Virus record (IMG/VR): IMGVR_UViG_3300006143_000348
Length of the DNA: 28,214 bases
Reading direction: 5' to 3' (one strand)
DNA from: a virus
Taxonomy: Duplodnaviria; Heunggongvirae; Uroviricota; Caudoviricetes
How positions within the stretch are numbered: the stretch's first letter is position 1; each line of letters begins with the position of its first letter. A program made the position numbers and the translations under genes. Positions 1,983 to 22,536 of this stretch are shown in pieces. The notes beneath the pieces were generated by a model. The model worked only from the letters and a program-made list of their open reading frames with translations, made no database searches and was not told the origin of the DNA.

Positions 1983-2011
1983 TTGCATTTTGTTTGGGGA
2001 TACTGTAAAAT
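1983..2011 (+). promoter_or_regulatory. SigA-type promoter for the first AAA-ATPase gene
   Basis: TTGCAT-17 bp-TAAAAT. Confidence 0.55.
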
Positions 2012-2051
2012 GGGTATAAGTTTTAAAGGAGCAGGGAAAGAGGTGGTTTAT

Positions 2052-3755
2052 ATGCTAAGGACAGTAGGAATAGGACATCAGGATTTTGAGACGATTCGGA
2101 AAGAAAATTATTTTTATGTAGATAAAACAGCATTCATTCATGAATGGTGGGAAAGAGGGGATAGTGTAACTCTAATTACCCGACCGAGAAGATTTGGGAA
2201 GACATTGAATATGAGCATGTTGGAACAATTCTTTTCTGTAAAATATGTAGGCCGGGGTGACTTGTTTGAGGGGCTGTTTATATGGCAAGAGGGGAAGTAC
2301 AGGGAATTGCAGGGGAAGTATCCAGTTATAGCACTTAGTTTTTCTGATGTGAAGGAAACAACATTTTTGGGAGCGCGGAAAAAGATTTGTAAGATTATCC
2401 AGTTATTATATAACAAGTTTGATTTTTTGCTTGAGGGAGATATGCTCAACAGCAGAGAAAAAGAAGATTTCTGCAGAATTTCTGCTGAGATGGAAGATTA
2501 TATGGCGACTCTTTCTTTAAAAATGCTTTCTGATTATCTGTACCGCTATTACGGGGAGAAAGTGATTATTCTTTTAGACGAGTATGATACGCCTATGCAG
2601 GAAGCCTATGTGAATGGGTATTGGAACGAGCTTGCCGAGTTTACAAGGAGTTTGTTTAATTCTACATTTAAGACGAACCCATACTTGGAACGTGCAGTGA
2701 TGACGGGGATAACAAGAGTTAGTAAAGAGTCAATCTTTTCTGACTTAAATAACCTGAAAGTGGTGACTACCACTTCGGAGGAATATGTAGACAGTTTCGG
2801 ATTTACAGAGGAGGAAGTATTTGCGGCACTGGATGAATATGGTTTGTCGAATAAGAAACAGGATGTAAAAAGCTGGTATGACGGGTTTACTTTTGGCAGT
2901 CTGACAGACATTTACAATCCGTGGTCTATTATCAATTTGCTGGATACGAGACAATTTCGGCCATACTGGGCAAATACCAGTTCTAACAGTCTGGCCGGGA
3001 AGCTTTTGCGTGAGGGGAATAAAAAAGTAAAGCAGGAATTTGAACGGATGTTGCAAGGGGGAATCCTAAAGGCGCAGATAGACGAACAAATTCTATATGA
3101 CCAGCTTACAGGAAAAGAAAGTACTATCTGGAGCCTCCTGCTGGCAAGCGGCTATCTGAAAGCGGTTAGGACGGAATTTGTAGAGCGCACAGGGAGGGTT
3201 TATTATTATCTAGCATTAACAAATAAAGAAGTGAAGATTATGTTTGAAGGGATGATTCAAGACTGGTTTACAGAATACAGTGATAGTTACAATGATTTCA
3301 TTAATGCACTTTTAGTAAATGATTTGAAGGCAATGAATGTATATATGAACAAAGTAGCATTGGCAACGTTTAGTTATTTTGATACTGGGAAAAAGCCCTC
3401 AGAGGAAGAGCCTGAGCGTTTCTATCATGGTTTTGTCCTAGGGTTGATGGTGGATTTGACTGACCGATATATCCTGACTTCGAACCGTGAAAGTGGTTTC
3501 GGACGGTATGATGTGATGCTGGAGCCTAGGGAAAAAGGCGATGATGCAATCATTCTGGAGTTTAAGGTGCGGGATTCAGAGGATGAGAAGGAACTTTCTG
3601 ATACTGTGCAGGAAGCTTTAAAACAGATAGACAGGAAACAGTATGAGGTATCGTTGATAGAGAAGGGAATCCCTAAAGAGAAAATTCGGAAGTATGGGTT
3701 TGCGTTCCAAGGGAAACAGGTATTGATTGGGGGCGGTCAGTATGAGGCTGTATAG
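2052..3755 (+). CDS. AAA-ATPase-like protein with C-terminal PD-(D/E)XK nuclease (DUF1703/PDDEXK_9 type), copy 1
   Basis: Walker A RPRRFGKT, Walker B ILLDEYD, FYHGFVLGL, SNRESGFGRYD, ILEFK. Start moved to ATG 2052 (MLRTVGIG) on the basis of the RBS GAGGTGG and the upstream promoter. Confidence 0.9.
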   Translation: MLRTVGIGHQDFETIRKENYFYVDKTAFIHEWWERGDSVTLITRPRRFGKTLNMSMLEQFFSVKYVGRGDLFEGLFIWQEGKYRELQGKYPVIALSFSDVKETTFLGARKKICKIIQLLYNKFDFLLEGDMLNSREKEDFCRISAEMEDYMATLSLKMLSDYLYRYYGEKVIILLDEYDTPMQEAYVNGYWNELAEFTRSLFNSTFKTNPYLERAVMTGITRVSKESIFSDLNNLKVVTTTSEEYVDSFGFTEEEVFAALDEYGLSNKKQDVKSWYDGFTFGSLTDIYNPWSIINLLDTRQFRPYWANTSSNSLAGKLLREGNKKVKQEFERMLQGGILKAQIDEQILYDQLTGKESTIWSLLLASGYLKAVRTEFVERTGRVYYYLALTNKEVKIMFEGMIQDWFTEYSDSYNDFINALLVNDLKAMNVYMNKVALATFSYFDTGKKPSEEEPERFYHGFVLGLMVDLTDRYILTSNRESGFGRYDVMLEPREKGDDAIILEFKVRDSEDEKELSDTVQEALKQIDRKQYEVSLIEKGIPKEKIRKYGFAFQGKQVLIGGGQYEAV

Positions 3756-3824
3756 AAACAAGCGCATTTGCAAAACGAAGAGATGTAGGATGTGGTATAG
3801 AAAACGGTATGAAATGGAGGTAGG

Positions 3825-5537
3825 ATGATGAGGAAGCCATTGCCGGTAGGTGTTGACAATTTCGAGAAGATAATAAGAGATGGCTATTGTTATGTCGATA
3901 AGACTATGCTGATTAAGGAATTACTTGATTTGAAAGGGGAAGTGAACCTATTTACACGTCCAAGACGTTTTGGAAAAACATTAAATATGAGTATGCTCCG
4001 ATATTTTTTTGAGGATACCGGGAACGAAAAAAGAAATGAGCAAAATAGAGAACTTTTTCAGGGGATGAAGATTATGGAAGCCGGGGAAAGCTACACAAAC
4101 CAGATGGGAATGTATTCTGTGTTTGAGCTGACTTTGAAATCGGCGAAACAGGAAAACTACGATATGGCTTATTACATGATACAAAATGCAGTTAGCACGG
4201 AGTTTGAAAGGCACAGGAGCATTATAGAAGTCGGGAAAGAATGTCTATCCAACAAAGAATATAAAGAGTATACTGATATTGCGGAGGGGCAGGGTGAGGA
4301 AAAAGCAATAAGAAATTCTTTGCGGCTTTTCTGCCAATGTATGTACAAAATTACTGGCAAGAATACAGTTATTCTAATTGACGAGTACGACGTGCCATTA
4401 GAAAATGCATATTTTAGAGGCTTTTATGAAAAGATGGTCAGCTTTATCCGTTCGTTGTTTGAAGCTGCCTTAAAGACAAATCAGTATTTGCAGTTTGCGG
4501 TTATTACTGGGTGCCTGAGGATTTCAAAAGAGAGTATATTTACCGGGTTGAATCATCTGAACATTATTTCTGTGCTTGATAAAAAGTACAGTGAGCATTT
4601 TGGATTTACAGAATCAGAAGTGAGCCAAATGATGTCCTATTATGAAGTAGAAAGCCGCTTTTCGACAATGAAAGAATGGTATGACGGATATTTATTTGGA
4701 GATACAGAGGTTTACAACCCGTGGAGTGTTATTAAGTTTTTATATGATTTATATTCGGACGTCAACGCATTTCCGCGTCCATATTGGATTAATACCAGTT
4801 CAAATGATATTATTAAAGATATGATAGCCAAGGCTGATAGGGAAACGAAGGGGCAGATTGAAGCGCTCTTGAGCGGAAAGACTCTTGATATCCAGGTTCA
4901 TGAGGAAGTCACTTATGGGGACATGTACAGCAGTGATGAGAATTTGTGGAATTTTCTTTACTTTACGGGGTATCTGACGAAGGAAAGCGAATATTTCGAA
5001 GAGACATCAGTTTTTTTACGGGCACGAATTCCGAATATAGAAGTGAAGACGGTCTATCAGAACACGATTCTTAATTGGTTTAAGAATACAATAAAGAAAC
5101 AAAACTTTCATGATTTGTACCAGGCACTGGAAGATGGAAATGCGAAGAGGATGACAAATATACTGACTGAGCAGCTTGCTTATACCATTAGCTTTTACGA
5201 TAGCGCAGAAAATTTTTATCATGGATTTCTTACTGGCATTTTAAGTCAGAGTGAAAATTATCTGGTTAAATCCAACCGGGAATCGGGGTACGGGAGGTCT
5301 GATATTATGGTGAGAAGCCCTTCTTTGCGGGGCAGGTCATTTGTTCTGGAAGTCAAGGTATCAGATTCTATTGATGATTTGGAGAGCGATGCAGAAAAGG
5401 CATTGCAGCAGATATATGAAAAAAGATATAGGGAAGAGCTTCGCACAGAGGGGTATCGGAACATAGACTGTTATGGGGTGTCGTTTTTCCGGAAAGACTG
5501 TGAGGTACGATTTGGGAAAAAGGAAGCACTTTGCTAA
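3825..5537 (+). CDS. AAA-ATPase-like protein with C-terminal PD-(D/E)XK nuclease, copy 2
   Basis: [38 protein letters not shown]; RBS GGAGG. Confidence 0.92.
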
Positions 5538-14745: not shown

Positions 14746-14785
14746 AAAAATCACGCCAAAGCAGAGTGCTTCAGCGTGATTTTTT
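14746..14785. terminator. Terminator after the CFI-box gene
   Basis: aaaaatcacgc...gcgtgattttt dyad. Confidence 0.65.
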
Positions 14786-15701
14786 ACCATCTTCTATCTT
14801 CATAAGGTGTAGACTCAATACCATTAGATTGTAAATTTTCAACCATACGGTCAAGTTTCCCTCTCCACATTTTCTTGAACCATTCCGTGTGTCCAAACCA
14901 TTTTACAAGAGTAGGGCTAATTGCGTAATAAGTTTTAATAAATGCTCTTCCATGCCATGTTTCAGCAAGGGTGTAGTCACGATAACGACGAAGCGTCCAA
15001 ACCTGAGGACAATCATAAGAACCATAGACAGCAGTAGCTACGTAACATCCATTATTGGTTGTTTGAGCTGTTGACATTTTCTTTATAAGTTCTTGAATGT
15101 AAATGTCATTATGCTTTGCGCCGAGTTGTCTGAGTTGTGTCACAAAGGCGTTTTTTGTGGCGGTGAACAAATTTATCTGCCAATTGTTTCCACCGACTGA
15201 ATAACCAGCTTTTGTATCATAAACATAATTTATTGAGGACATTTTAAGTATTGCATCACTGATTTTAGTAAGGACGGCCTCTTTATCCTCGTCCGTTACT
15301 TCATAGTAATCATTGATAACAGAAATTGAATTATTGAGTACTGTAAACTTCTGCTGCCTTTTATAGTAATCAGAATCAGTAAGAGCTAACATAGCTTTGC
15401 CATATGCGCTAAAGAATACGGCTTCTATATTATCGGGAGAATTTTGCTCGACCATATTATAATATTTTTCTACTTCTTCCCAATCTTCTTTATCAAATGC
15501 ACGACGTGCATTTAAAAGATATTTTTGTACAAAAGATGAATTATCAATTTGAACGGTACCTTGGATATCAACATTACCCTCAATCATCATTTTCTTTGCT
15601 TCTTCAACGGAATATTTCATACCACAGTTTTGGCATACAAAGACGCCATCCTGCTTCATGAGGTCAGTTCCGCCACACATTTCACAAGTTGGTTGTTTCA
15701 T
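14784..15701 (-). CDS. Zn-ribbon + helical domain + CFI-box-CTERM protein
   Basis: CEMCGG...CQNCG zinc ribbon; C-terminal GCYVATAVYGSYDCPQVWTLRRYRD...FIKTYYAISP. Start at MKQPT after RBS GGAGGGG. Confidence 0.85.
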   Translation of the reverse strand: MKQPTCEMCGGTDLMKQDGVFVCQNCGMKYSVEEAKKMMIEGNVDIQGTVQIDNSSFVQKYLLNARRAFDKEDWEEVEKYYNMVEQNSPDNIEAVFFSAYGKAMLALTDSDYYKRQQKFTVLNNSISVINDYYEVTDEDKEAVLTKISDAILKMSSINYVYDTKAGYSVGGNNWQINLFTATKNAFVTQLRQLGAKHNDIYIQELIKKMSTAQTTNNGCYVATAVYGSYDCPQVWTLRRYRDYTLAETWHGRAFIKTYYAISPTLVKWFGHTEWFKKMWRGKLDRMVENLQSNGIESTPYEDRRW

Positions 15702-15982
15702 TTTTACCCCCTCCAATTTTATTTTAATCTATATTATCTACATTATATAACAATATTCGACAATTGAGTAGATAGAACATAAGTTTATAAATTACAATAT
15801 GCAGAGGATATATTTTGACTAGATATAATGTTTAAAGATACAATATTTAATGCATCTATTTAATAATAGCAGGAAATGAAACATAATTAAAATGGCGGCG
15901 GGAATTGTTATGACATACCTGCCGCTTCTATACACTTCAAAAAGAAAGGAGTTCTTTGTATCCGAAGAACGTGTTTAGTTTA

Positions 15983-16326
15983 TCATTCTGATGCTGATAC
16001 AGATACAGCATTTGCGTTTATGACCATATCATCAGGGTTCCCAGGATATTCGTCAGATACAGGAGCAGAATCGCTTCCTGATACGCTACCCCTCTGTCTC
16101 ATCATTTCCAGTTCTAAACCTCTTTCCACAGAATACATACCAATGTCATACTGTTGTATCTGCCAACAATTGTAGATATATTCTTATCCTCTTTCGGGTT
16201 AAACAAATATTCCGCGATTATTTTGGGGAGGTTAAAAAGAGACGCCAATATAGTAACAAATGAAGAAATTACAGCAGTGGTAGTTCCTGTGACATCACCC
16301 GTCTGAGCAATTTTATCTTTAGCCAA
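15983..16326 (-). pseudogene. 5'-truncated, frameshifted paralogue of the 19571-20155 membrane protein
   Basis: LPKIIAEYLFNPKEDKNI motif; adding one base near 16160 restores QIQQYDIGMYS...VSASE to a stop at 15983-15985. Confidence 0.7.
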
Positions 16327-16684: not shown

Positions 16685-16885
16685 CTATGCACTTTCATTA
16701 TTATTTGATGTGTCTTCAGGTTCATTTGCAGATTCGTGCTCTGTCTTTTTGAAATCCAGAGTCCATTGTCTTCCTGTTGTGTCATGTTCCTGCGTATGTA
16801 AGATAATGTCAGTAGTATTTTTATCTTCTTTTGCACTGAAGAGATATTTGGTAATTGAGATAGGTATGGCAATTATTACTGACAC
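16685..16885 (-). pseudogene. 3' remnant of a second paralogue of the 19571-20155 membrane protein
   Basis: IPISITKYLFSAKEDKNTTDIILHTQEHDT motif; in-frame stop at 16907-16909 just upstream and no well-spaced RBS. Confidence 0.6.
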
Positions 16886-16912: not shown

Positions 16913-17932
16913 CTAATTGTAGGACGTATCACCTATTAATTTTTGAACTAAATCGTGTGCAAAATAATCTTGAACGCAATTAATAAATTTCTTTTTGTTA
17001 ACTGGAGTCGAAAAGACATCAGGAATACTGTCTAATGAATTTATATATTTTTTTAGGCAAGGGAAATTAATAAAAACACTAATAATATCTCTTAATATTC
17101 GGTTGTCAACTTTTTCACTACAAAGTATCATATCTATGATTCTAAGACAGAGGGCGTCTATTCCAATCCAGTCCTTGCATTCATCGTATCTTCCTGTAGA
17201 AATATTTATTATAATATTAAATATTTCGGGCAGACCTTTAAATGTTTTATCATCTTGTTCCCAATCCCAATTGATTTGTTTTGAATCATAACTATCCATG
17301 ATAGTAAAAAACAAAGAAGTATAGTATCTTCCGTGATTAATATTTACAGAATACGCTTTAAGTGCACTTTTGATTATTAATGAGAGGATATTTTTCATTT
17401 TTTTGTCATATGACATATTCGTTACGTCATATGCAATATCGTAATATGGCTTTAGATTATATGGATAAGATGTGTAGTAGAAGCTGTTGGCTATTTTTAA
17501 GCTCGAGATTTCATTTACCTCATTAATAAGTTGGTTATTAATTTTTATGCCAATTCCTTTAAACAAGGTCTGCTCTAAATATAGGTCTATTATTGATTTG
17601 TCCGTAAATCCTACTCCAAAAACAGGAAGTTCTTGTCCCGATGATTGGAGATTAAATGAACCCAAATCGCCTCTTGAAACTACAGCATTAAAAAATAAGC
17701 CATGTGCGCATAAGGACTCCCTCAAATAAATTAAATAATCCAGAAGCCGCTCTAAGTCCCTGGAAAAAGCGTAAACGGAGTCACTAAACAAGCCTACTTC
17801 GCCAAGCCCGCTTAAAAAAATAGTTCCTTTTTCGACTTCTGAATAAAAGATGTTAATATTTTCTTCATATTCACAAGCATCGTCTTTAAAATTTTTTGTT
17901 CCTAATAAATCAAAATATGAAATATATCCCAT
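16913..17932 (-). CDS. Hypothetical protein with class III nucleotide-cyclase-like N-terminal domain
   Basis: YISYFDLLGTK...LFSDSVY...FFNAVVSRGDL...DLYLEQ pattern; RBS GAGGTG. Confidence 0.55.
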   Translation of the reverse strand: MGYISYFDLLGTKNFKDDACEYEENINIFYSEVEKGTIFLSGLGEVGLFSDSVYAFSRDLERLLDYLIYLRESLCAHGLFFNAVVSRGDLGSFNLQSSGQELPVFGVGFTDKSIIDLYLEQTLFKGIGIKINNQLINEVNEISSLKIANSFYYTSYPYNLKPYYDIAYDVTNMSYDKKMKNILSLIIKSALKAYSVNINHGRYYTSLFFTIMDSYDSKQINWDWEQDDKTFKGLPEIFNIIINISTGRYDECKDWIGIDALCLRIIDMILCSEKVDNRILRDIISVFINFPCLKKYINSLDSIPDVFSTPVNKKKFINCVQDYFAHDLVQKLIGDTSYN

Positions 17933-17946
17933 ATCAACACCTCTGT

Positions 17947-18972
17947 TTACTTAGAAATTAATTTAAAATAGTTAAATGAGCCGTTTAATGCTAAAAACAC
18001 ACTGCTGTCTTCTACGAAATAGCAATCAGAGAGTTCAACGGAGCCCTTCTTTATAGCTACCAATGAGGGGAAGTCGACATTGTTTTGCTTACAGAAAGCT
18101 GGAATTACATCACTGATTTGCATCCGTACAGTTTTATCAAATTTGCTATATTGATTGTTTGGGTCAAACATTGTATAATTTTCTAGTAATTCTATTTCAA
18201 CGAAGAGTGTTTTAATAATTAAATTCCAGTAATCCTCTAGTAGAAAATGAATTAAATCATCCAAGCTTATGCTGTTATTGCAACAGTGTTCTAAAACTAG
18301 AGGATAGGATAATGATAGATAGCTTGTTTTATTCAATTCTGTAATATTACTTCCATAATATTTTTGGATAATTTTATTATCATTATACTTGAGGTTTAAA
18401 ATATAATCTTTTTTTTCTTTAGAAAACTTCTTCCTTTCGGATAAATTATTGCTTAACTTAAAGTATCTATAAAAGATGATATCTAACATAATAGATGATA
18501 GAATGTACTCTAAGTAATTTAAATGCGTTTCAATGTTGATATCAAAATCCTTCTGTGGGTCATATTTCCATTTGGTTTTTTCTCCGAGTTTATATTTATG
18601 AGATGTAATTGATAATGAAATTAAATGACTTATATCACTGCTGTTGTGTTTGTATGCGTCAATTATTTTGTTGTAAATATTATTGTATTTTATATCGTTA
18701 TGTTGCACCAAACATAATCGGATATTATGATATTCAGTAACTACTTTTTCATAATTAGAAACAGAAGTACATTGAATCTTAGAAGGACATTGAGTTTCGC
18801 CTATTTTTTCGCTTATCTGCTTGATAAAATGGTTAACACTATTTACTATTTCCTTCAAATCTGGGGATAACCTCATTATAGAGCGTATATTTTTTAAATC
18901 ATCAGTTTTTAGTTCATTGGGGTATAGAAAAAGCATTTTTCTTTGGTTTTTCTCTGTCATAAATACGTTCAC
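17947..18972 (-). CDS. Hypothetical protein, 341 aa, very AT-rich
   Basis: Long ORF with RBS GGTAGGTG, ending 14 bp upstream of the next gene. Confidence 0.8.
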   Translation of the reverse strand: MNVFMTEKNQRKMLFLYPNELKTDDLKNIRSIMRLSPDLKEIVNSVNHFIKQISEKIGETQCPSKIQCTSVSNYEKVVTEYHNIRLCLVQHNDIKYNNIYNKIIDAYKHNSSDISHLISLSITSHKYKLGEKTKWKYDPQKDFDINIETHLNYLEYILSSIMLDIIFYRYFKLSNNLSERKKFSKEKKDYILNLKYNDNKIIQKYYGSNITELNKTSYLSLSYPLVLEHCCNNSISLDDLIHFLLEDYWNLIIKTLFVEIELLENYTMFDPNNQYSKFDKTVRMQISDVIPAFCKQNNVDFPSLVAIKKGSVELSDCYFVEDSSVFLALNGSFNYFKLISK

Positions 18973-19410
18973 CTACCATATATTTTTTTACATTATATAA
19001 CAAAGAATAGCATTAGTCAACAATATAAAAATCCTTTTCCTAATCCTTAGTCATAAAGTTTATTAAAAAATTGAATATATTTTGACACATCATTTAATCA
19101 ATATGGTTAGTATATGCTTATTCAAATATCAGTATAAATATGTTAAAAATGTGACTATTTCAAGCGTGAAATAAACTGACGAAGCGGCAGCATTTGTTCT
19201 TTGTCTTGCGATAGTTATTTAGGGATGCAAGTGCAACATGCTCGTAGTGCTGGGATTTAGGATACTACCTGGTCTACAGTATCTTCTCTAAGGATACTAT
19301 AGAATTTCACGTTTCCGTTAACCAGAACGGACTTGAAATCAATAGTACATTCTACGAAAAGTAGGATTCTTCGTTACCGAATACGGTAACAAGAGTGGAA
19401 TGAAAGGTGG

Positions 19411-19450: not shown

Positions 19451-19480
19451 AAAATTCAGTCGACTTCCATTCGTTGATAT
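19451..19480. repeat. 30-bp direct repeat, copy A
   Basis: aaaattcagtcgacttccattcgttgatat; 27/30 identical to 21075-21104. Confidence 0.8.
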
Positions 19481-19570: not shown

Positions 19571-20155
19571 CTAACTTGCTTCTGTAGAAGTAACTTCATC
19601 AGGAACGGCTTCACTAGGAATAGGTTCTGCAGAGGTAGTTTCATCAGGAGCAGTGCCGCTAGGGTTATGCGTTAACCGTTCTTTGTATCTATGTCCATAG
19701 AGGGCTGTGTCATACCTTTGCAGATTATTTATTATTTCAACCATACTTTTTTCTTCCTTTATGTTGAATAGATATTTCGCAATAATTTTTGGTATTATAA
19801 TAAATGAAGTAGTGAGCGATACAAGTGGAGGAATAAAAGTCGCTATTAAATCCAAGACAGCTTGACTATCTAATGTCTTGTTGGTTTTAATTATATTCAA
19901 AACGCTATAAAAAGAATCGTTAAATATAAAAACCATTTTCAACCATATGTATATTGCAACTATAAAAAATGTAAATTTAAAAAGGACTTTCAAATATATG
20001 TTTATTCTTGTAGTATTTTCATATATTTTTAGTAAGTTCGTATATACCGCATTGTGCTTGGGAAGTTCGCAGTAAGCATCTTCCGGTTGCGTCAGAGCGT
20101 CATCTCTGATTGGGATTTCGCTAACACCACTCGTTCCAGCCAACGACCTAAGCAT
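19571..20155 (-). CDS. Two-TM membrane protein coupled to the ImmA/IrrE gene
   Basis: Two hydrophobic segments, IPKIIAKYLFNIKEEK motif, 8-bp overlap with the peptidase gene. Confidence 0.85.
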   Translation of the reverse strand: MLRSLAGTSGVSEIPIRDDALTQPEDAYCELPKHNAVYTNLLKIYENTTRINIYLKVLFKFTFFIVAIYIWLKMVFIFNDSFYSVLNIIKTNKTLDSQAVLDLIATFIPPLVSLTTSFIIIPKIIAKYLFNIKEEKSMVEIINNLQRYDTALYGHRYKERLTHNPSGTAPDETTSAEPIPSEAVPDEVTSTEAS

Positions 20156-20957
20156 AACAACCCACCTCGTACATTCTTTTCAAAACAGATTTTCTAGGAG
20201 CTTTAAATGTATCTGAAAGATAATCCAGAATGAATATAGGGTTGTTACTCTTAGCTCTTGCCTTATTATATTCTTTTAAGAAGGCATCCTTTGGCATAAG
20301 TAAGCTGGCTGCAAAGGCATTTGCACGCTTTTCTGCTTCTGCACTATGACTATTTTTCTTATATGTATTATAGTACACTTCAGACGTATGGTCATAATCA
20401 AACAGATAATGCGCCAATTCATGGGCAATAACAAATCTTTGTTGGTACGGATGTACTTTTCTGTTTGTAAAAATAATGTGGTCTGTCTTAAACTTTTTTA
20501 TGTACTTTTTATTGATACCAATACAACCGGATAAAAACCACAGCAAATCTTGCTGGAATGTATCAAATCCCATCGCTTTTGCGATAGACACTACTGGTGT
20601 AATACAAGAATTTCTATCATCAGTGGTGTCTGGCATGGCAGATAGGATTTCTGATGCCAGATATTCCATATCAGAAGCATAATAAATCTTATTGTTGTAT
20701 TGGCGTTCTTGCTTGATTTTATCAGTAATACTTTGTATGCTTTTTCTCATCTTCTTTTTCCCCTCAATTGTAATGCCCGTCATGCTACCACCATAACTCT
20801 CTTTGGTTAATTTAAAATGCTTATATATATGTAAATCATAAATCATCGCATTAAAACTCCCTGCATACTTGATAACACTATTATACAAGGCTTGTACAAA
20901 ATGATAAATACCCCAGTTAACGCAAGTCATGCCATGATTCATGTTTGCAGATGCCAA
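20148..20957 (-). CDS. ImmA/IrrE-family zinc metallo-endopeptidase
   Basis: QRFVIAHELAH (HExxH) and EKRANAFAASLLMP; true start may be 20783 or 20750. Confidence 0.9.
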   Translation of the reverse strand: MASANMNHGMTCVNWGIYHFVQALYNSVIKYAGSFNAMIYDLHIYKHFKLTKESYGGSMTGITIEGKKKMRKSIQSITDKIKQERQYNNKIYYASDMEYLASEILSAMPDTTDDRNSCITPVVSIAKAMGFDTFQQDLLWFLSGCIGINKKYIKKFKTDHIIFTNRKVHPYQQRFVIAHELAHYLFDYDHTSEVYYNTYKKNSHSAEAEKRANAFAASLLMPKDAFLKEYNKARAKSNNPIFILDYLSDTFKAPRKSVLKRMYEVGCYA

Positions 20958-21074: not shown

Positions 21075-21104
21075 AAAACTCAGTCGACTTCGATTCGCTG
21101 ATAT
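21075..21104. repeat. 30-bp direct repeat, copy B
   Basis: aaaactcagtcgacttcgattcgctgatat. Confidence 0.8.
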
Positions 21105-21198: not shown

Positions 21199-21330
21199 TC
21201 CACGTTTGTCTGCTTATTGTGAACTACCCACGAGCTAAAGCTCGATGGGCTTCCTGCTTCATCGACCTCGCAACCTACTATCTCCACAGGCGTTAATTCC
21301 GATAGTTCCTACCGTACTCAATATATCTAA
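21199..21330 (-). ncRNA. Predicted TnpB omegaRNA (scaffold plus flanking guide), 5' end approximate
   Basis: Established for this family: the RNA spans the tnpB 3' end through the right end; the predicted guide is aataagcagacaaacgtgga. Confidence 0.5.
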
Positions 21331-22536
21331 GCTACATCGAGTAGTCTTAACCCTTCATTAAGAATATTGATAGCGGCATTAATATCACGGTCATGTACAT
21401 TTCCACATTGAGGGCACGTCCATTCCCTGACAAATAAATTTTTCGTTTCCTCATTAACATACCCACAAATATTACACGTTTGGCTTGATTTAACAAATCG
21501 TCCAATTTTCACATACTGGCGATTATTCCAATCAGATTTATACTGTAATTGTCGTGTCAGTTCATGCCAGCCACAATCAGAAATTGCTTTTGCAAGAGTA
21601 TGATTCTTTACTATATTACTTACAGCCAAATCCTCAGTCACTATCGCTTGGTTTTCGCTTACTAGCTGACTGGATATTTTATGTAAGTAATCTTTTCTGG
21701 TGTTTGAAACCTTTTCGTGTATTTTCGCTACTTTAATTCTCTGTTTGTTCCAATTTTTACTACCTTTTACTTTATGAGATAATTTCTCTGTTCCTTTGCC
21801 AATTTATCTTCATATTTCTTAGTTAGTCTCTTGTTATCAAATTTCTGTCCATTGGAGGTAACAAGTAAATCCTTAATACCTAAATCAATACCAACTATAC
21901 AATCAGCGGGTTCCATTTGTATATGTCCTGTTTCCACAAGGATAGATACAAAATATTTTCCAGATGAAACCTGTGAGATAGTAGCAGATTTTATTTTACC
22001 GTCAAATTTTCTATGCAGTTTTGCTTTTACCAATTTAAGTTTTGGAAGTTTGATTTTGTTTGAATCAAACAATACAGCAATATTTCCGTTTGTAAAATTT
22101 GTTGTGTATGATTTATGACTGTCGTGCTTACTTTTAAATTTCGGATATCCCGCATGTTCCTTGAAAAACTTCTGATATGCAGAATCCATGTTGTAAACTG
22201 CATTTGTCAATGCAAACTTATCAACTTCCTTCAGCCATTCGTATTCTTTCTTTAATGTTTGATTGACATAGTTGTTACAAGCAACTTTATTCATGGATTC
22301 TTTCTGTTTCACATATTTTTCTTTCCTGTATGAAAGAGTATTGTTATATACAAATCTACAACACCCGAACGTCTTTTGTATTTGTTCCTCCTGTTGTCCG
22401 TTTGGATAAATACGGTATTTGTAGGCTTTTAGCATTTACTTGTCACCACCCTTCTGGCTATATATTCTATTTTTATTTTATAAATTACACCCTTAACCCA
22501 TCAGCTAAAGCTAATGGGATTGCGGGCTAAATACTT
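21219..22536 (-). mobile_element. IS200/IS605-family tnpB-only element (IS1341-like)
   Basis: Subterminal hairpins cccacgagctaaagctcgatggg (right end) and cccatcagctaaagctaatggg (left end); right end TCAC at 21219; left end approximate, after TTGAA. Confidence 0.85.
21327..22435 (-). pseudogene. tnpB: TnpB RNA-guided endonuclease split by a 1-nt deletion near 21783
   Basis: MLKAYKYRIYP, GIDLGI (RuvC-I), EDL (RuvC-II), CNICG/CPQCG zinc finger, DRDINAAINI (RuvC-III); one extra A restores EQRKLSHKVKGSKNW. Confidence 0.88.

What the first reader, a model, noticed from the sequence alone, without database searches (positions are those of the whole stretch)
16913..18972. Two-gene unit with a divergent nucleotide-cyclase-like protein: candidate second-messenger defence
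Seen: a 341-aa unknown gene 14 bp upstream of a 339-aa protein with FDLLG(T), FSD, a beta-strand-G motif (NAVVSRGDL) and DLYLEQ, followed by an uncharacterised helical C-terminal half. Established: class III cyclases use two Asp in FxDxxG and (G/S)D, and the Pycsar defence system uses this fold. Inference: a cyclase or nucleotidyltransferase with a non-canonical partner, matching no system I can name.
Basis: inference. Interest (0 to 1): 0.7.

Follow-up and report, generated by a model that had tools for sequence, protein, structure and literature searches.

The report
Cyclase-fold enzyme with bound orphan partner
A gut phage carries a conserved two-gene cassette: an enzyme built on the nucleotide-cyclase fold but with a rebuilt substrate pocket, and a partner protein of no known family that is predicted to bind it. 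It is most likely an undescribed anti-phage or exclusion module that is not Pycsar.

Summary
Two co-directional minus-strand genes, A (17947-18960, or 18972 from an upstream GTG) and B (16913-17932), lie 14 bp apart behind their own strong promoter. They sit in a 30% GC cargo island of a phage record.

B residues 1-170 fold as a class III cyclase homology domain (model pLDDT 93.6; VIA Z 13.7 to Rv1900c; the Foldseek PDB hits with E<=0.001 listed are all class III cyclases). Both metal-binding Asp are kept in 98-99% of 141 family representatives. The base-specifying Lys and the Asn/Arg pair of helix alpha4 are not kept, no cyclase HMM matches, and a 165-residue helical domain follows.

A has no family or fold match. 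An A-like gene sits directly upstream of B in 13 of 14 distinct loci, from gut Firmicutes to a Rhizobium plasmid, and one A-B fusion exists. A and B identities co-vary across loci (Mantel r 0.92). The complex model supports binding (ipSAE 0.75, best control 0.06).

Neighbours include Thoeris-type genes, a type IIG restriction-modification (RM) gene, Mrr and toxin-antitoxin genes on mobile elements.

Verdict: a real, uncharacterised two-gene system. It uses the cyclase fold but is not a Pycsar member. Its product and its role in defence are inferred, not shown. The scan found the same cassette before on another genome (e1-5418115) and reached a similar reading.

The parts
18992..19020 (-). Promoter-like site of the A-B operon (TTGACT, 17 nt, TATAAT)
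   Evidence: Matches 11 of 12 consensus positions and is the best site in the region. Its -10 box is repeated in front of the neighbouring CFI-box gene (repeat D3). This is a consensus match only; transcription was not shown.
17947..18960 (-). Gene A: a 337-aa soluble protein of no known family, the dedicated partner of B. An alternative GTG start at 18972 gives 341 aa.
   Evidence: ORF. Homologues. No family hit. The model has pLDDT 73.8 and no fold match (Foldseek E>0.3, best VIA Z 4.0). No transmembrane segment. R85 and D164 (341-aa numbering) are invariant in 20 partners.
17933..17946 (-). 14-nt spacer carrying the GAGGTG ribosome-binding site of gene B
   Evidence: Sequence read directly.
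17423..17932 (-). Gene B, residues 1-170: class III cyclase homology domain with the metal-binding Asp pair (D8 codon 17909-17911, D51 codon 17780-17782)
   Evidence: Model pLDDT 93.6, pTM 0.92, with beta1-alpha1-alpha2-beta2-beta3-alpha3-beta4... topology. The Foldseek PDB hits with E<=0.001 that were listed are all class III cyclases. VIA gives Z 13.7 to 1ybt over 151 residues at rmsd 3.2, with ranks 1-25 class III cyclases or CHD-like chains including Pycsar cyclases, and GGDEF domains at Z 8-9. Conservation: D8 98%, S50 96%, D51 99%.
16916..17416 (-). Gene B, residues 173-339: helical C-terminal domain with the conserved R-Y-Y motif (R202, Y203, Y204)
   Evidence: Secondary structure. Y204 is kept in 98%, Y203 in 89% and R202 in 77% of representatives. 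This domain was not folded or searched on its own, so no statement on its fold is possible.
16913..16915 (-). Stop codon of gene B

Best explanation
A and B form a conserved, self-promoted two-gene module that travels on phages, integrative elements and plasmids. B is a soluble enzyme. Its N-terminal half has the class III cyclase (palm) fold with an intact two-metal Asp pair, so it most likely binds an NTP and carries out nucleotidyl transfer. The residues that canonical cyclases use to read the base and to stabilise the transition state are replaced, and a family-specific helical domain is appended. Its substrate or product is therefore probably not an ordinary cAMP or cGMP reaction. A is an orphan protein that binds B directly. 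In the model, A's N-terminal helices sit on helices alpha2 and alpha3 of the cyclase domain and on the linker to the C-domain. From my own knowledge, not superposed here, this is the face on which Gs-alpha regulates mammalian adenylyl cyclase. I infer that A is the sensor or regulatory subunit that holds B in check or switches it on. The output would be either a nucleotide-derived product or NTP consumption, which would protect the lysogen against superinfecting phages or other mobile elements. Shown: the genes, the fold, the Asp conservation, the A-B gene linkage and the mobile, defence-rich neighbourhoods. Supported by a model only: A-B binding. Inferred: catalysis, A's regulatory role and the defence function.
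For: Fold. The metal Asp pair and S50 are kept in 96-99% of 141 representatives that share at most 50% identity. An A-like gene of 313-410 aa lies directly upstream of B in 13 of 14 distinct loci. Homology of these partners to A is shown for L003, L005, L006, L007, L010, L014, L018 and L019 and is marginal for L015. One 696-aa protein joins an L015-type partner to B. Pairwise identities of A and B co-vary over 10 loci (Mantel r 0.92, permutation p 2e-4). Complex model: ipSAE 0.75 in three runs (0.76, 0.75, 0.71), best of 3 controls 0.06; this mark was reached by 58 of 80 solved complexes and 2 of 110 mismatched pairs; the runs share at least 93% of contacts and the partner's pLDDT is at least 74. 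Neighbourhoods: a Thoeris-type ThsA-Macro, a ThsB-TIR and a CAP12/PycTIR-type TIR gene directly downstream in a Ruminococcus MAG (metagenome-assembled genome), with a serine recombinase nearby. A type IIG RM gene, Mrr, an integrase and a Mob gene in L006. A toxin-antitoxin pair and conjugation genes in L003. A PLD-like gene in L015. The window itself is a 30% GC cargo island of a phage record, next to an ImmA/CapP-like peptidase. Distribution is sparse: 3 of 401 genomes of one order.
Against: No activity, product or phenotype is known for any member. No register of helix alpha4 gives a conserved Asn or Arg, and the position of the base-specifying Lys is variable, so catalysis could be lost or quite different. 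Neither protein has a recognisable effector domain or a transmembrane segment. The defence role rests on neighbourhood in a handful of loci. The complex score is a model's own confidence, obtained with my own unpaired alignments. The alpha2/alpha3 analogy to Gs-alpha was not checked by superposition because no coordinates were available to scripts.
Confidence: 0.5

Rival explanations
1. A Pycsar/Pucsar-style relay. B makes a diffusible cyclic mononucleotide on infection, and A is its receptor-effector that kills or arrests the cell.
For: Pycsar cyclases are among the structural matches (7r65 Z 11.2, 8jsf Z 10.9, 8jsz Z 10.7, and 6yii Z 9.2, which is PaPycC according to PMC11224242). The system has two genes, and some loci lie in defence islands.
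Against: A has no cyclic-nucleotide-binding, TIR or transmembrane domain. B starts directly with strand beta1 and so lacks the N-terminal helix called a hallmark of PycC. No PADLOC Pycsar model matches any of 66 B or 20 A members. A is predicted to bind B directly, which a diffusible relay does not need. The specificity and transition-state residues are not kept.
Confidence: 0.15
2. B is a pseudo-enzyme: a cyclase-fold scaffold or nucleotide sensor without turnover. The A-B complex would act purely through protein-protein or protein-nucleic-acid contacts.
For: The Asn/Arg and Lys positions are lost. A non-catalytic class III-like ATP-binding protein is how PDB entry 6yii was first titled.
Against: D8, S50 and D51 are kept in 96-99% of representatives that share at most 50% identity. 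This is hard to explain without metal-dependent chemistry or at least metal-nucleotide binding.
Confidence: 0.12
3. The module has a function other than defence: an addiction or maintenance pair, a regulator of the element's own life cycle, or a phage counter-defence enzyme that makes or removes host immune nucleotides.
For: It is always found on mobile DNA. A tightly bound pair is typical of toxin-antitoxin logic. In L001 gene A is truncated while B is intact, so B alone is at least tolerated.
Against: The same pair occurs on phages, integrative conjugative elements (ICEs), plasmids and chromosomal islands, so it is not tied to one life cycle. Two equal-sized 340-aa proteins are unusual for a toxin-antitoxin pair. 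Neighbours are often defence genes.
Confidence: 0.2

Closest known systems
Class III nucleotidyl cyclases (PF00211; e.g. M. tuberculosis Rv1900c, PDB 1ybt)
   Same: The same domain fold over about 150 residues (Z 13.7, rmsd 3.2). The same placement of the two metal-binding Asp, at the end of beta1 and in the beta2-beta3 hairpin.
   Different: No HMM-level similarity. The substrate-specifying Lys position is variable. The only well-conserved polar residues on alpha4 are Y118 and Q121, in place of Asn/Arg. A family-specific helical C-domain is appended. A dedicated binding partner is encoded upstream.
Pycsar and Pucsar (PycC/PucC cyclases with CNBD-TIR or 3TM effectors; PMC11224242, bioRxiv 10.64898/2026.08.12.744502)
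   Same: A cyclase-fold enzyme in a two-gene cassette on mobile or defence DNA. PycC structures are clear fold matches (Z 9-11).
   Different: There is no CNBD, TIR or membrane effector, and no N-terminal PycC helix. The active-site periphery differs. The partner is predicted to bind the enzyme itself. No PADLOC model matches.
Mammalian adenylyl cyclase regulated by Gs-alpha (PDB 1azs)
   Same: A protein regulator docks on the alpha2/alpha3 face of a cyclase domain. For AC this comes from my knowledge of the 1azs structure; for A-B it comes from the modelled contacts at B 35-41 and 61-77. 1azs is itself among the fold hits.
   Different: A is unrelated to G proteins, and the analogy was not checked by superposition. 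B has one cyclase domain per chain, and its oligomeric state is unknown.
Panoptes mCpol and Cas10 palm domains; GGDEF diguanylate cyclases
   Same: The same palm superfold with two acidic metal ligands. Some of these work in anti-phage signalling (PMC12657218).
   Different: The structural match is much weaker (Z 8-9 over about 110-130 residues). There is no GGDEF or GGDD motif (B has FSD) and no Pfam match.
DUF2652 cyclase-like proteins (PMC4886424)
   Same: An earlier case of a divergent bacterial family recognised as class III cyclase-like mainly by fold and by the Asp pair.
   Different: None of the 66 B members scanned matches that Pfam family. DUF2652 keeps the Arg and the Lys/Glu pair, and B does not.

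Membership tests
Class III nucleotidyl cyclase | [quoted passage not shown] | tested here: met
   Z 13.7 to 1ybt, and the listed Foldseek hits with E<=0.001 are all class III cyclases.
Class III nucleotidyl cyclase | Two metal-binding aspartates (beta1 and the beta2-beta3 hairpin) | tested here: met
   D8 is kept in 98% and D51 in 99% of 141 representatives. Their positions come from the model's secondary structure and a co-linear but non-significant hhalign to two Rhizobium cyclase domains.
Class III nucleotidyl cyclase | Substrate-specifying pair (Lys/Asp for ATP, Glu/Cys-type for GTP) | tested here: not met
   The position four residues before D51 is Y, G, F, H or R across the family. The feature is defined in PMC4886424.
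Class III nucleotidyl cyclase | Transition-state Asn and Arg on helix alpha4 | tested here: not met
   Neither of the two registers tried places a conserved Asn or Arg on alpha4 (residues 112-123). Only Y118 (87%) and Q121 (77%) are conserved there. Asn alone is dispensable, as in Rv1900c (PMC4886424). The register was not confirmed by 3D superposition.
Class III nucleotidyl cyclase | Match to the family profile PF00211 | tested here: not met
   No hit for B at E<=1, for 66 members at E<=0.1, or in a six-frame search of the phage record.
Class III nucleotidyl cyclase | Head-to-tail dimer with active sites at the interface | not tested
Pycsar / Pucsar | Effector with a cyclic-nucleotide-binding domain fused to a TIR or transmembrane module | tested here: not met
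   No Pfam or PADLOC hit in A or in 20 partners. No transmembrane segment.
Pycsar / Pucsar | PycC-type cyclase with the hallmark N-terminal helix | tested here: not met
   Strand beta1 begins at residue 2. The feature is taken from PMC11224242.
Pycsar / Pucsar | Protection against phage through cNMP synthesis | not testable with these tools
   Needs phage challenge experiments and LC-MS.
GGDEF diguanylate cyclase | GG(D/E)EF hairpin motif and a profile match | tested here: not met
   The hairpin reads F-S-D. There is no Pfam match. The fold match is only Z 8-9.
mCpol / Cas10 palm | GGDD-type palm with a profile match | tested here: inconclusive
   No Pfam hit. One Cas10-type chain appears at Z 8.1. 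No dedicated comparison was made.

The most novel reading that the evidence does not exclude
This would be a new kind of immune module built on the cyclase fold. An orphan sensor protein clamps the regulatory face of a remodelled cyclase-domain enzyme. On infection it releases or activates the enzyme, which then makes a nucleotide product not yet seen in immunity or acts itself as the effector by consuming NTPs. No separate receptor-effector would be needed.
Probability: 0.3. Interest if true: 0.8.

Novelty: new variant of a known kind. Interest (0 to 1): 0.62.

Why it matters
Cyclase-fold enzymes are already known to drive anti-phage signalling (Pycsar, Pucsar), always paired with a cyclic-nucleotide receptor. 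This cassette keeps the fold and the metal site but changes the rest of the pocket. It swaps the receptor-effector for a directly bound protein of no known family. If it is active, it would widen the chemistry or the control logic of nucleotide-based immunity. It would also give a function to two orphan families: about 184 representative clusters of B, from gut Firmicutes to Rhizobium. The module is small, soluble and has its own promoter, so it is easy to test.

Tried and rejected
**Family libraries**
- Pfam, PADLOC, PHROGs and NCBIfam gave nothing for A or B.
- Scanning 66 B members and 20 A members one by one also gave nothing.

**Solved structures by sequence**
- Profile searches of the PDB found only chance-level rows.

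**Sequence comparison with true cyclase domains**
- hhalign of the B profile against two genuine Rhizobium cyclase domains was not significant.
- The link to cyclases is therefore structural only.

**Fold of gene A**
- No Foldseek match better than E 0.3, and best VIA Z 4.0.
- The model is of middling confidence (pLDDT 73.8, N-terminal half low), so this does not show a new fold.

**A Cys-His-Asp triad in A**
- I considered C87, H116 and D144/D164 as a catalytic triad.
- I dropped the idea because C87 and H116 are not kept in the distant partners.

**Viral structure library (BFVD)**
- Only generic cyclase or GGDEF domain proteins matched, with no full-length relative.

**Collection scans**
- Pattern scans with the close alignment found nothing in the genome or viral collections.
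- The broad alignment was too variable to use.

**A third core gene**
- FHA (L006), TIR/Thoeris (L018) and an unknown gene (L016) each occur in one locus only.
- They are neighbours, not core components.

**Rhizobium and L016 partners**
- Their homology to A could not be shown statistically. Only shared motifs were seen.

**Not done**

Full report
**Observation.** Two co-directional ORFs lie on the minus strand: 17947-18972 (341 aa from GTG) and 16913-17932 (339 aa from ATG). The 14-nt spacer carries a GAGGTG ribosome-binding site. A near-consensus promoter (TTGACT, 17 nt, TATAAT) lies at 19020-18992.

The GTG at 18972 sits inside the AGGTGA ribosome-binding site that precedes an ATG at 18960. 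Homologues start at that Met, and the 337-aa form is the one seen on 266 public contigs. I therefore place the start of gene A at 18960.

**Setting.** The window is the first 28 kb of a 69-kb IMG/VR virus record, estimated 58% complete. The cassette lies in a stretch of about 30% GC. On one side is an ImmA/IrrE-type peptidase that also matches the CapP and RmrA models, together with its membrane-protein gene. On the other side is a CFI-box-CTERM protein. A lysin, a serine recombinase and a broken TnpB lie further out. Earlier first-reader notes of this scan describe the same stretch as a cargo island.

**Gene B, family.**
- No family library matches B.
- A full scan of 1.84 billion representative proteins finds 184 relatives at E<=1e-3. 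Nearly all are 310-370 aa and align end to end.
- With a 66-sequence alignment, the AlphaFold model is very confident (pLDDT 93.6, pTM 0.92).

**Gene B, fold.**
- Residues 1-170 have the order beta1, alpha1, alpha2, beta2, beta3, alpha3, beta4, beta5, alpha4, beta6, alpha5, beta7, beta8.
- The Foldseek PDB hits with E<=0.001 that were listed are all class III adenylyl or guanylyl cyclases.
- The Foldseek-independent search gives Z 13.7 to Rv1900c (151 residues, rmsd 3.2). Ranks 1-25 are class III cyclases or cyclase-homology-like chains, including the Pycsar cyclases 7r65, 8jsf and 8jsz, and 6yii.
- GGDEF domains follow at Z 8-9 and a Cas10-type chain at Z 8.1. The fold claim is confirmed.

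**Gene B, active site.** Conservation was measured over 141 full-length representatives.

| Residue | Kept in |
|---|---|
| D8 | 98% |
| G11 | 97% |
| S50 | 96% |
| D51 | 99% |
| R71 | 97% |
| G88 | 95% |
| F109 | 94% |
| Y118 | 87% |
| G126 | 99% |
| G128 | 95% |
| D165 | 99% |
| Y203 | 89% |
| Y204 | 98% |

- D8 ends beta1 and D51 sits in the beta2-beta3 hairpin. These are the two metal-ligand positions of this fold.
- A forced, non-significant hhalign to two genuine Rhizobium cyclase domains is co-linear over 149 columns. It pairs D8 and D51 with their metal Asp.
- The other defining residues of class III cyclases, as listed in PMC4886424, are not there. The position of the base-specifying Lys is variable.
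- Whichever register is used for alpha4, there is no conserved Asn or Arg. The conserved polar residues of that helix are Y118 and Q121.
- No cyclase profile matches B.
- B is thus a cyclase-fold protein with an intact metal site and a rebuilt periphery, followed by a 165-residue helical domain carrying an R-Y-Y motif. I could not examine that domain alone.

**Gene A.**
- A has no family hit in any library and no transmembrane segment.
- Its model is of moderate confidence and has no fold match. This does not prove a new fold.
- Its family is small and evolves faster than B.

**Linkage of A and B.**
- In 13 of 14 distinct loci examined, an ORF of 313-410 aa abuts or overlaps the start of B. 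In the fourteenth (L001) the A gene is truncated.
- Homology to A is strong for L003, L005, L006, L007, L010 and L014. It is clear for L018 and L019 and marginal for L015.
- For L011 (Rhizobium) and L016 only shared motifs are seen. R85 and D164 are invariant in all 20 aligned partners.
- A single 696-aa metagenomic protein joins an L015-type partner (phmmer 6e-17) to a B domain.
- Pairwise identities of A and B co-vary across 10 loci (Mantel r 0.92, p 2e-4). This shows co-inheritance as a unit.

**Predicted A-B binding.**
- The complex prediction supports binding, with ipSAE 0.75 (runs 0.76, 0.75, 0.71) against a best control of 0.06.
- That mark was reached by 58 of 80 solved complexes and 2 of 110 mismatched pairs. 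The runs share at least 93% of contacts, and the partner's pLDDT is at least 74.
- The contacts are B 35-41, 61-77 and 172-185 with A 22-45, 124-127 and 150-155. On B these are alpha2, alpha3 and the inter-domain linker.
- From my own knowledge of the Gs-alpha/adenylyl cyclase structure (1azs, itself a fold hit), this is the regulatory face rather than the dimer or active-site face. I did not superpose the structures.

**Neighbourhoods.**
- Ruminococcus MAG (metagenome-assembled genome), L018: the pair is followed on the same strand by a CAP12/PycTIR-type TIR gene, a ThsA-Macro gene and a ThsB-TIR gene, with a serine recombinase nearby. The close relative L019 lacks these, so they are neighbours and not parts of the system.
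- L006: a type IIG restriction-modification enzyme and Mrr, on an integrase/Mob element, with an FHA gene directly downstream.
- L003: RelB/ParE-type pairs and conjugation genes.
- L007-L009: genes of an integrative conjugative element (ICE).
- L015: a PLD-like gene.
- L010: Fic and GIY-YIG genes.
- Rhizobium plasmid (L011): an island of 45% GC beside a serine recombinase.
- Only 3 of 401 genomes sampled from one order carry B.
- This patchy, mobile, defence-rich pattern is what accessory immune genes look like, but it is circumstantial.

**Interpretation.**
- The best reading (about 0.5) is a heteromeric module. B performs Asp-dependent nucleotide chemistry under the control of bound A, and the module serves exclusion or defence for the element's host.
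- A Pycsar-like diffusible relay is less likely (0.15). The receptor domain, the PycC N-terminal helix and the PADLOC matches are all missing.
- A pseudo-enzyme (0.12) is disfavoured by the near-absolute conservation of the metal site.
- A non-defence role on mobile elements (0.2) cannot be excluded.

**Literature and earlier notes.**
- Searches found Pycsar structures (PMC11224242), the Pucsar preprint with its survey of immune cyclase clades (10.64898/2026.08.12.744502), Panoptes (PMC12657218) and the DUF2652 cyclase-like family (PMC4886424). None describes this pair.
- The scan had already met the same cassette on another genome (e1-5418115). Its follow-up reached a similar reading. My tests were run independently but with the same kinds of tools, so the agreement is not independent evidence.

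Noticed in passing
window 16685-16885 and 16114-16326 (minus strand): Two short ORFs just downstream of gene B resemble the C-terminal third of the 194-aa membrane protein at 19571-20155 (shared ...KYLF..KE(D/E)K... stretch). The A-B cassette is therefore bracketed by a full copy and a 3' stump of one gene, as if cassettes were exchanged by recombination there.
   Followed up: partly
window 15734-15753 and 18984-19003: The -10 region of the A-B promoter (TTGTTATATAATGTAAAAAA on the minus strand) is repeated at 90% identity in front of the CFI-box-CTERM gene. The cargo modules appear to share one promoter type.
   Followed up: no
window 19451-19480 and 21075-21104: 30-nt direct repeats (27 of 30 identical) bracket the ImmA-peptidase plus membrane-protein module.
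   Followed up: no
window 20148-20957: This M78/IrrE-type peptidase scores best against the PADLOC capP model (9.6e-20) and also matches RmrA models. It overlaps a membrane-protein gene, and no HTH partner was seen.
   Followed up: no
window 14784-15716: A protein with an N-terminal zinc ribbon and a CFI-box-CTERM domain (NF041770, 1.4e-21), carried as phage cargo.
   Followed up: no
window 21327-22435: An IS605-type OrfB/TnpB gene is split into two ORFs of 222 aa and 104 aa. It is probably a decayed copy.
   Followed up: no
window 1983-5537: Two tandem paralogues, each with an AAA-ATPase_like domain plus PDDEXK_9, lie next to a large serine recombinase at 355-1932.
   Followed up: no
L018 9029-11152: In a Ruminococcus MAG, a 216-aa CAP12/PycTIR-family TIR protein starts 14 nt after the B homologue. 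Its N-terminal part is only 69 residues, too short for a cyclic-nucleotide-binding domain. ThsA-Macro and ThsB-TIR genes follow it. It could be a second ThsB or an add-on effector.
   Followed up: partly
L001 6984-7592: In a related phage, gene A is cut to 202 aa and followed by a 400-nt gap, while B is intact. B alone therefore seems to be tolerated.
   Followed up: partly
P0068 (JGI metagenome 3300075153, no DNA available): A 696-aa protein joins an A-type partner to a B domain in which the second metal Asp is Gly (FSG instead of FSD). It is a single observation and may be a true fusion or an assembly artefact.
   Followed up: partly
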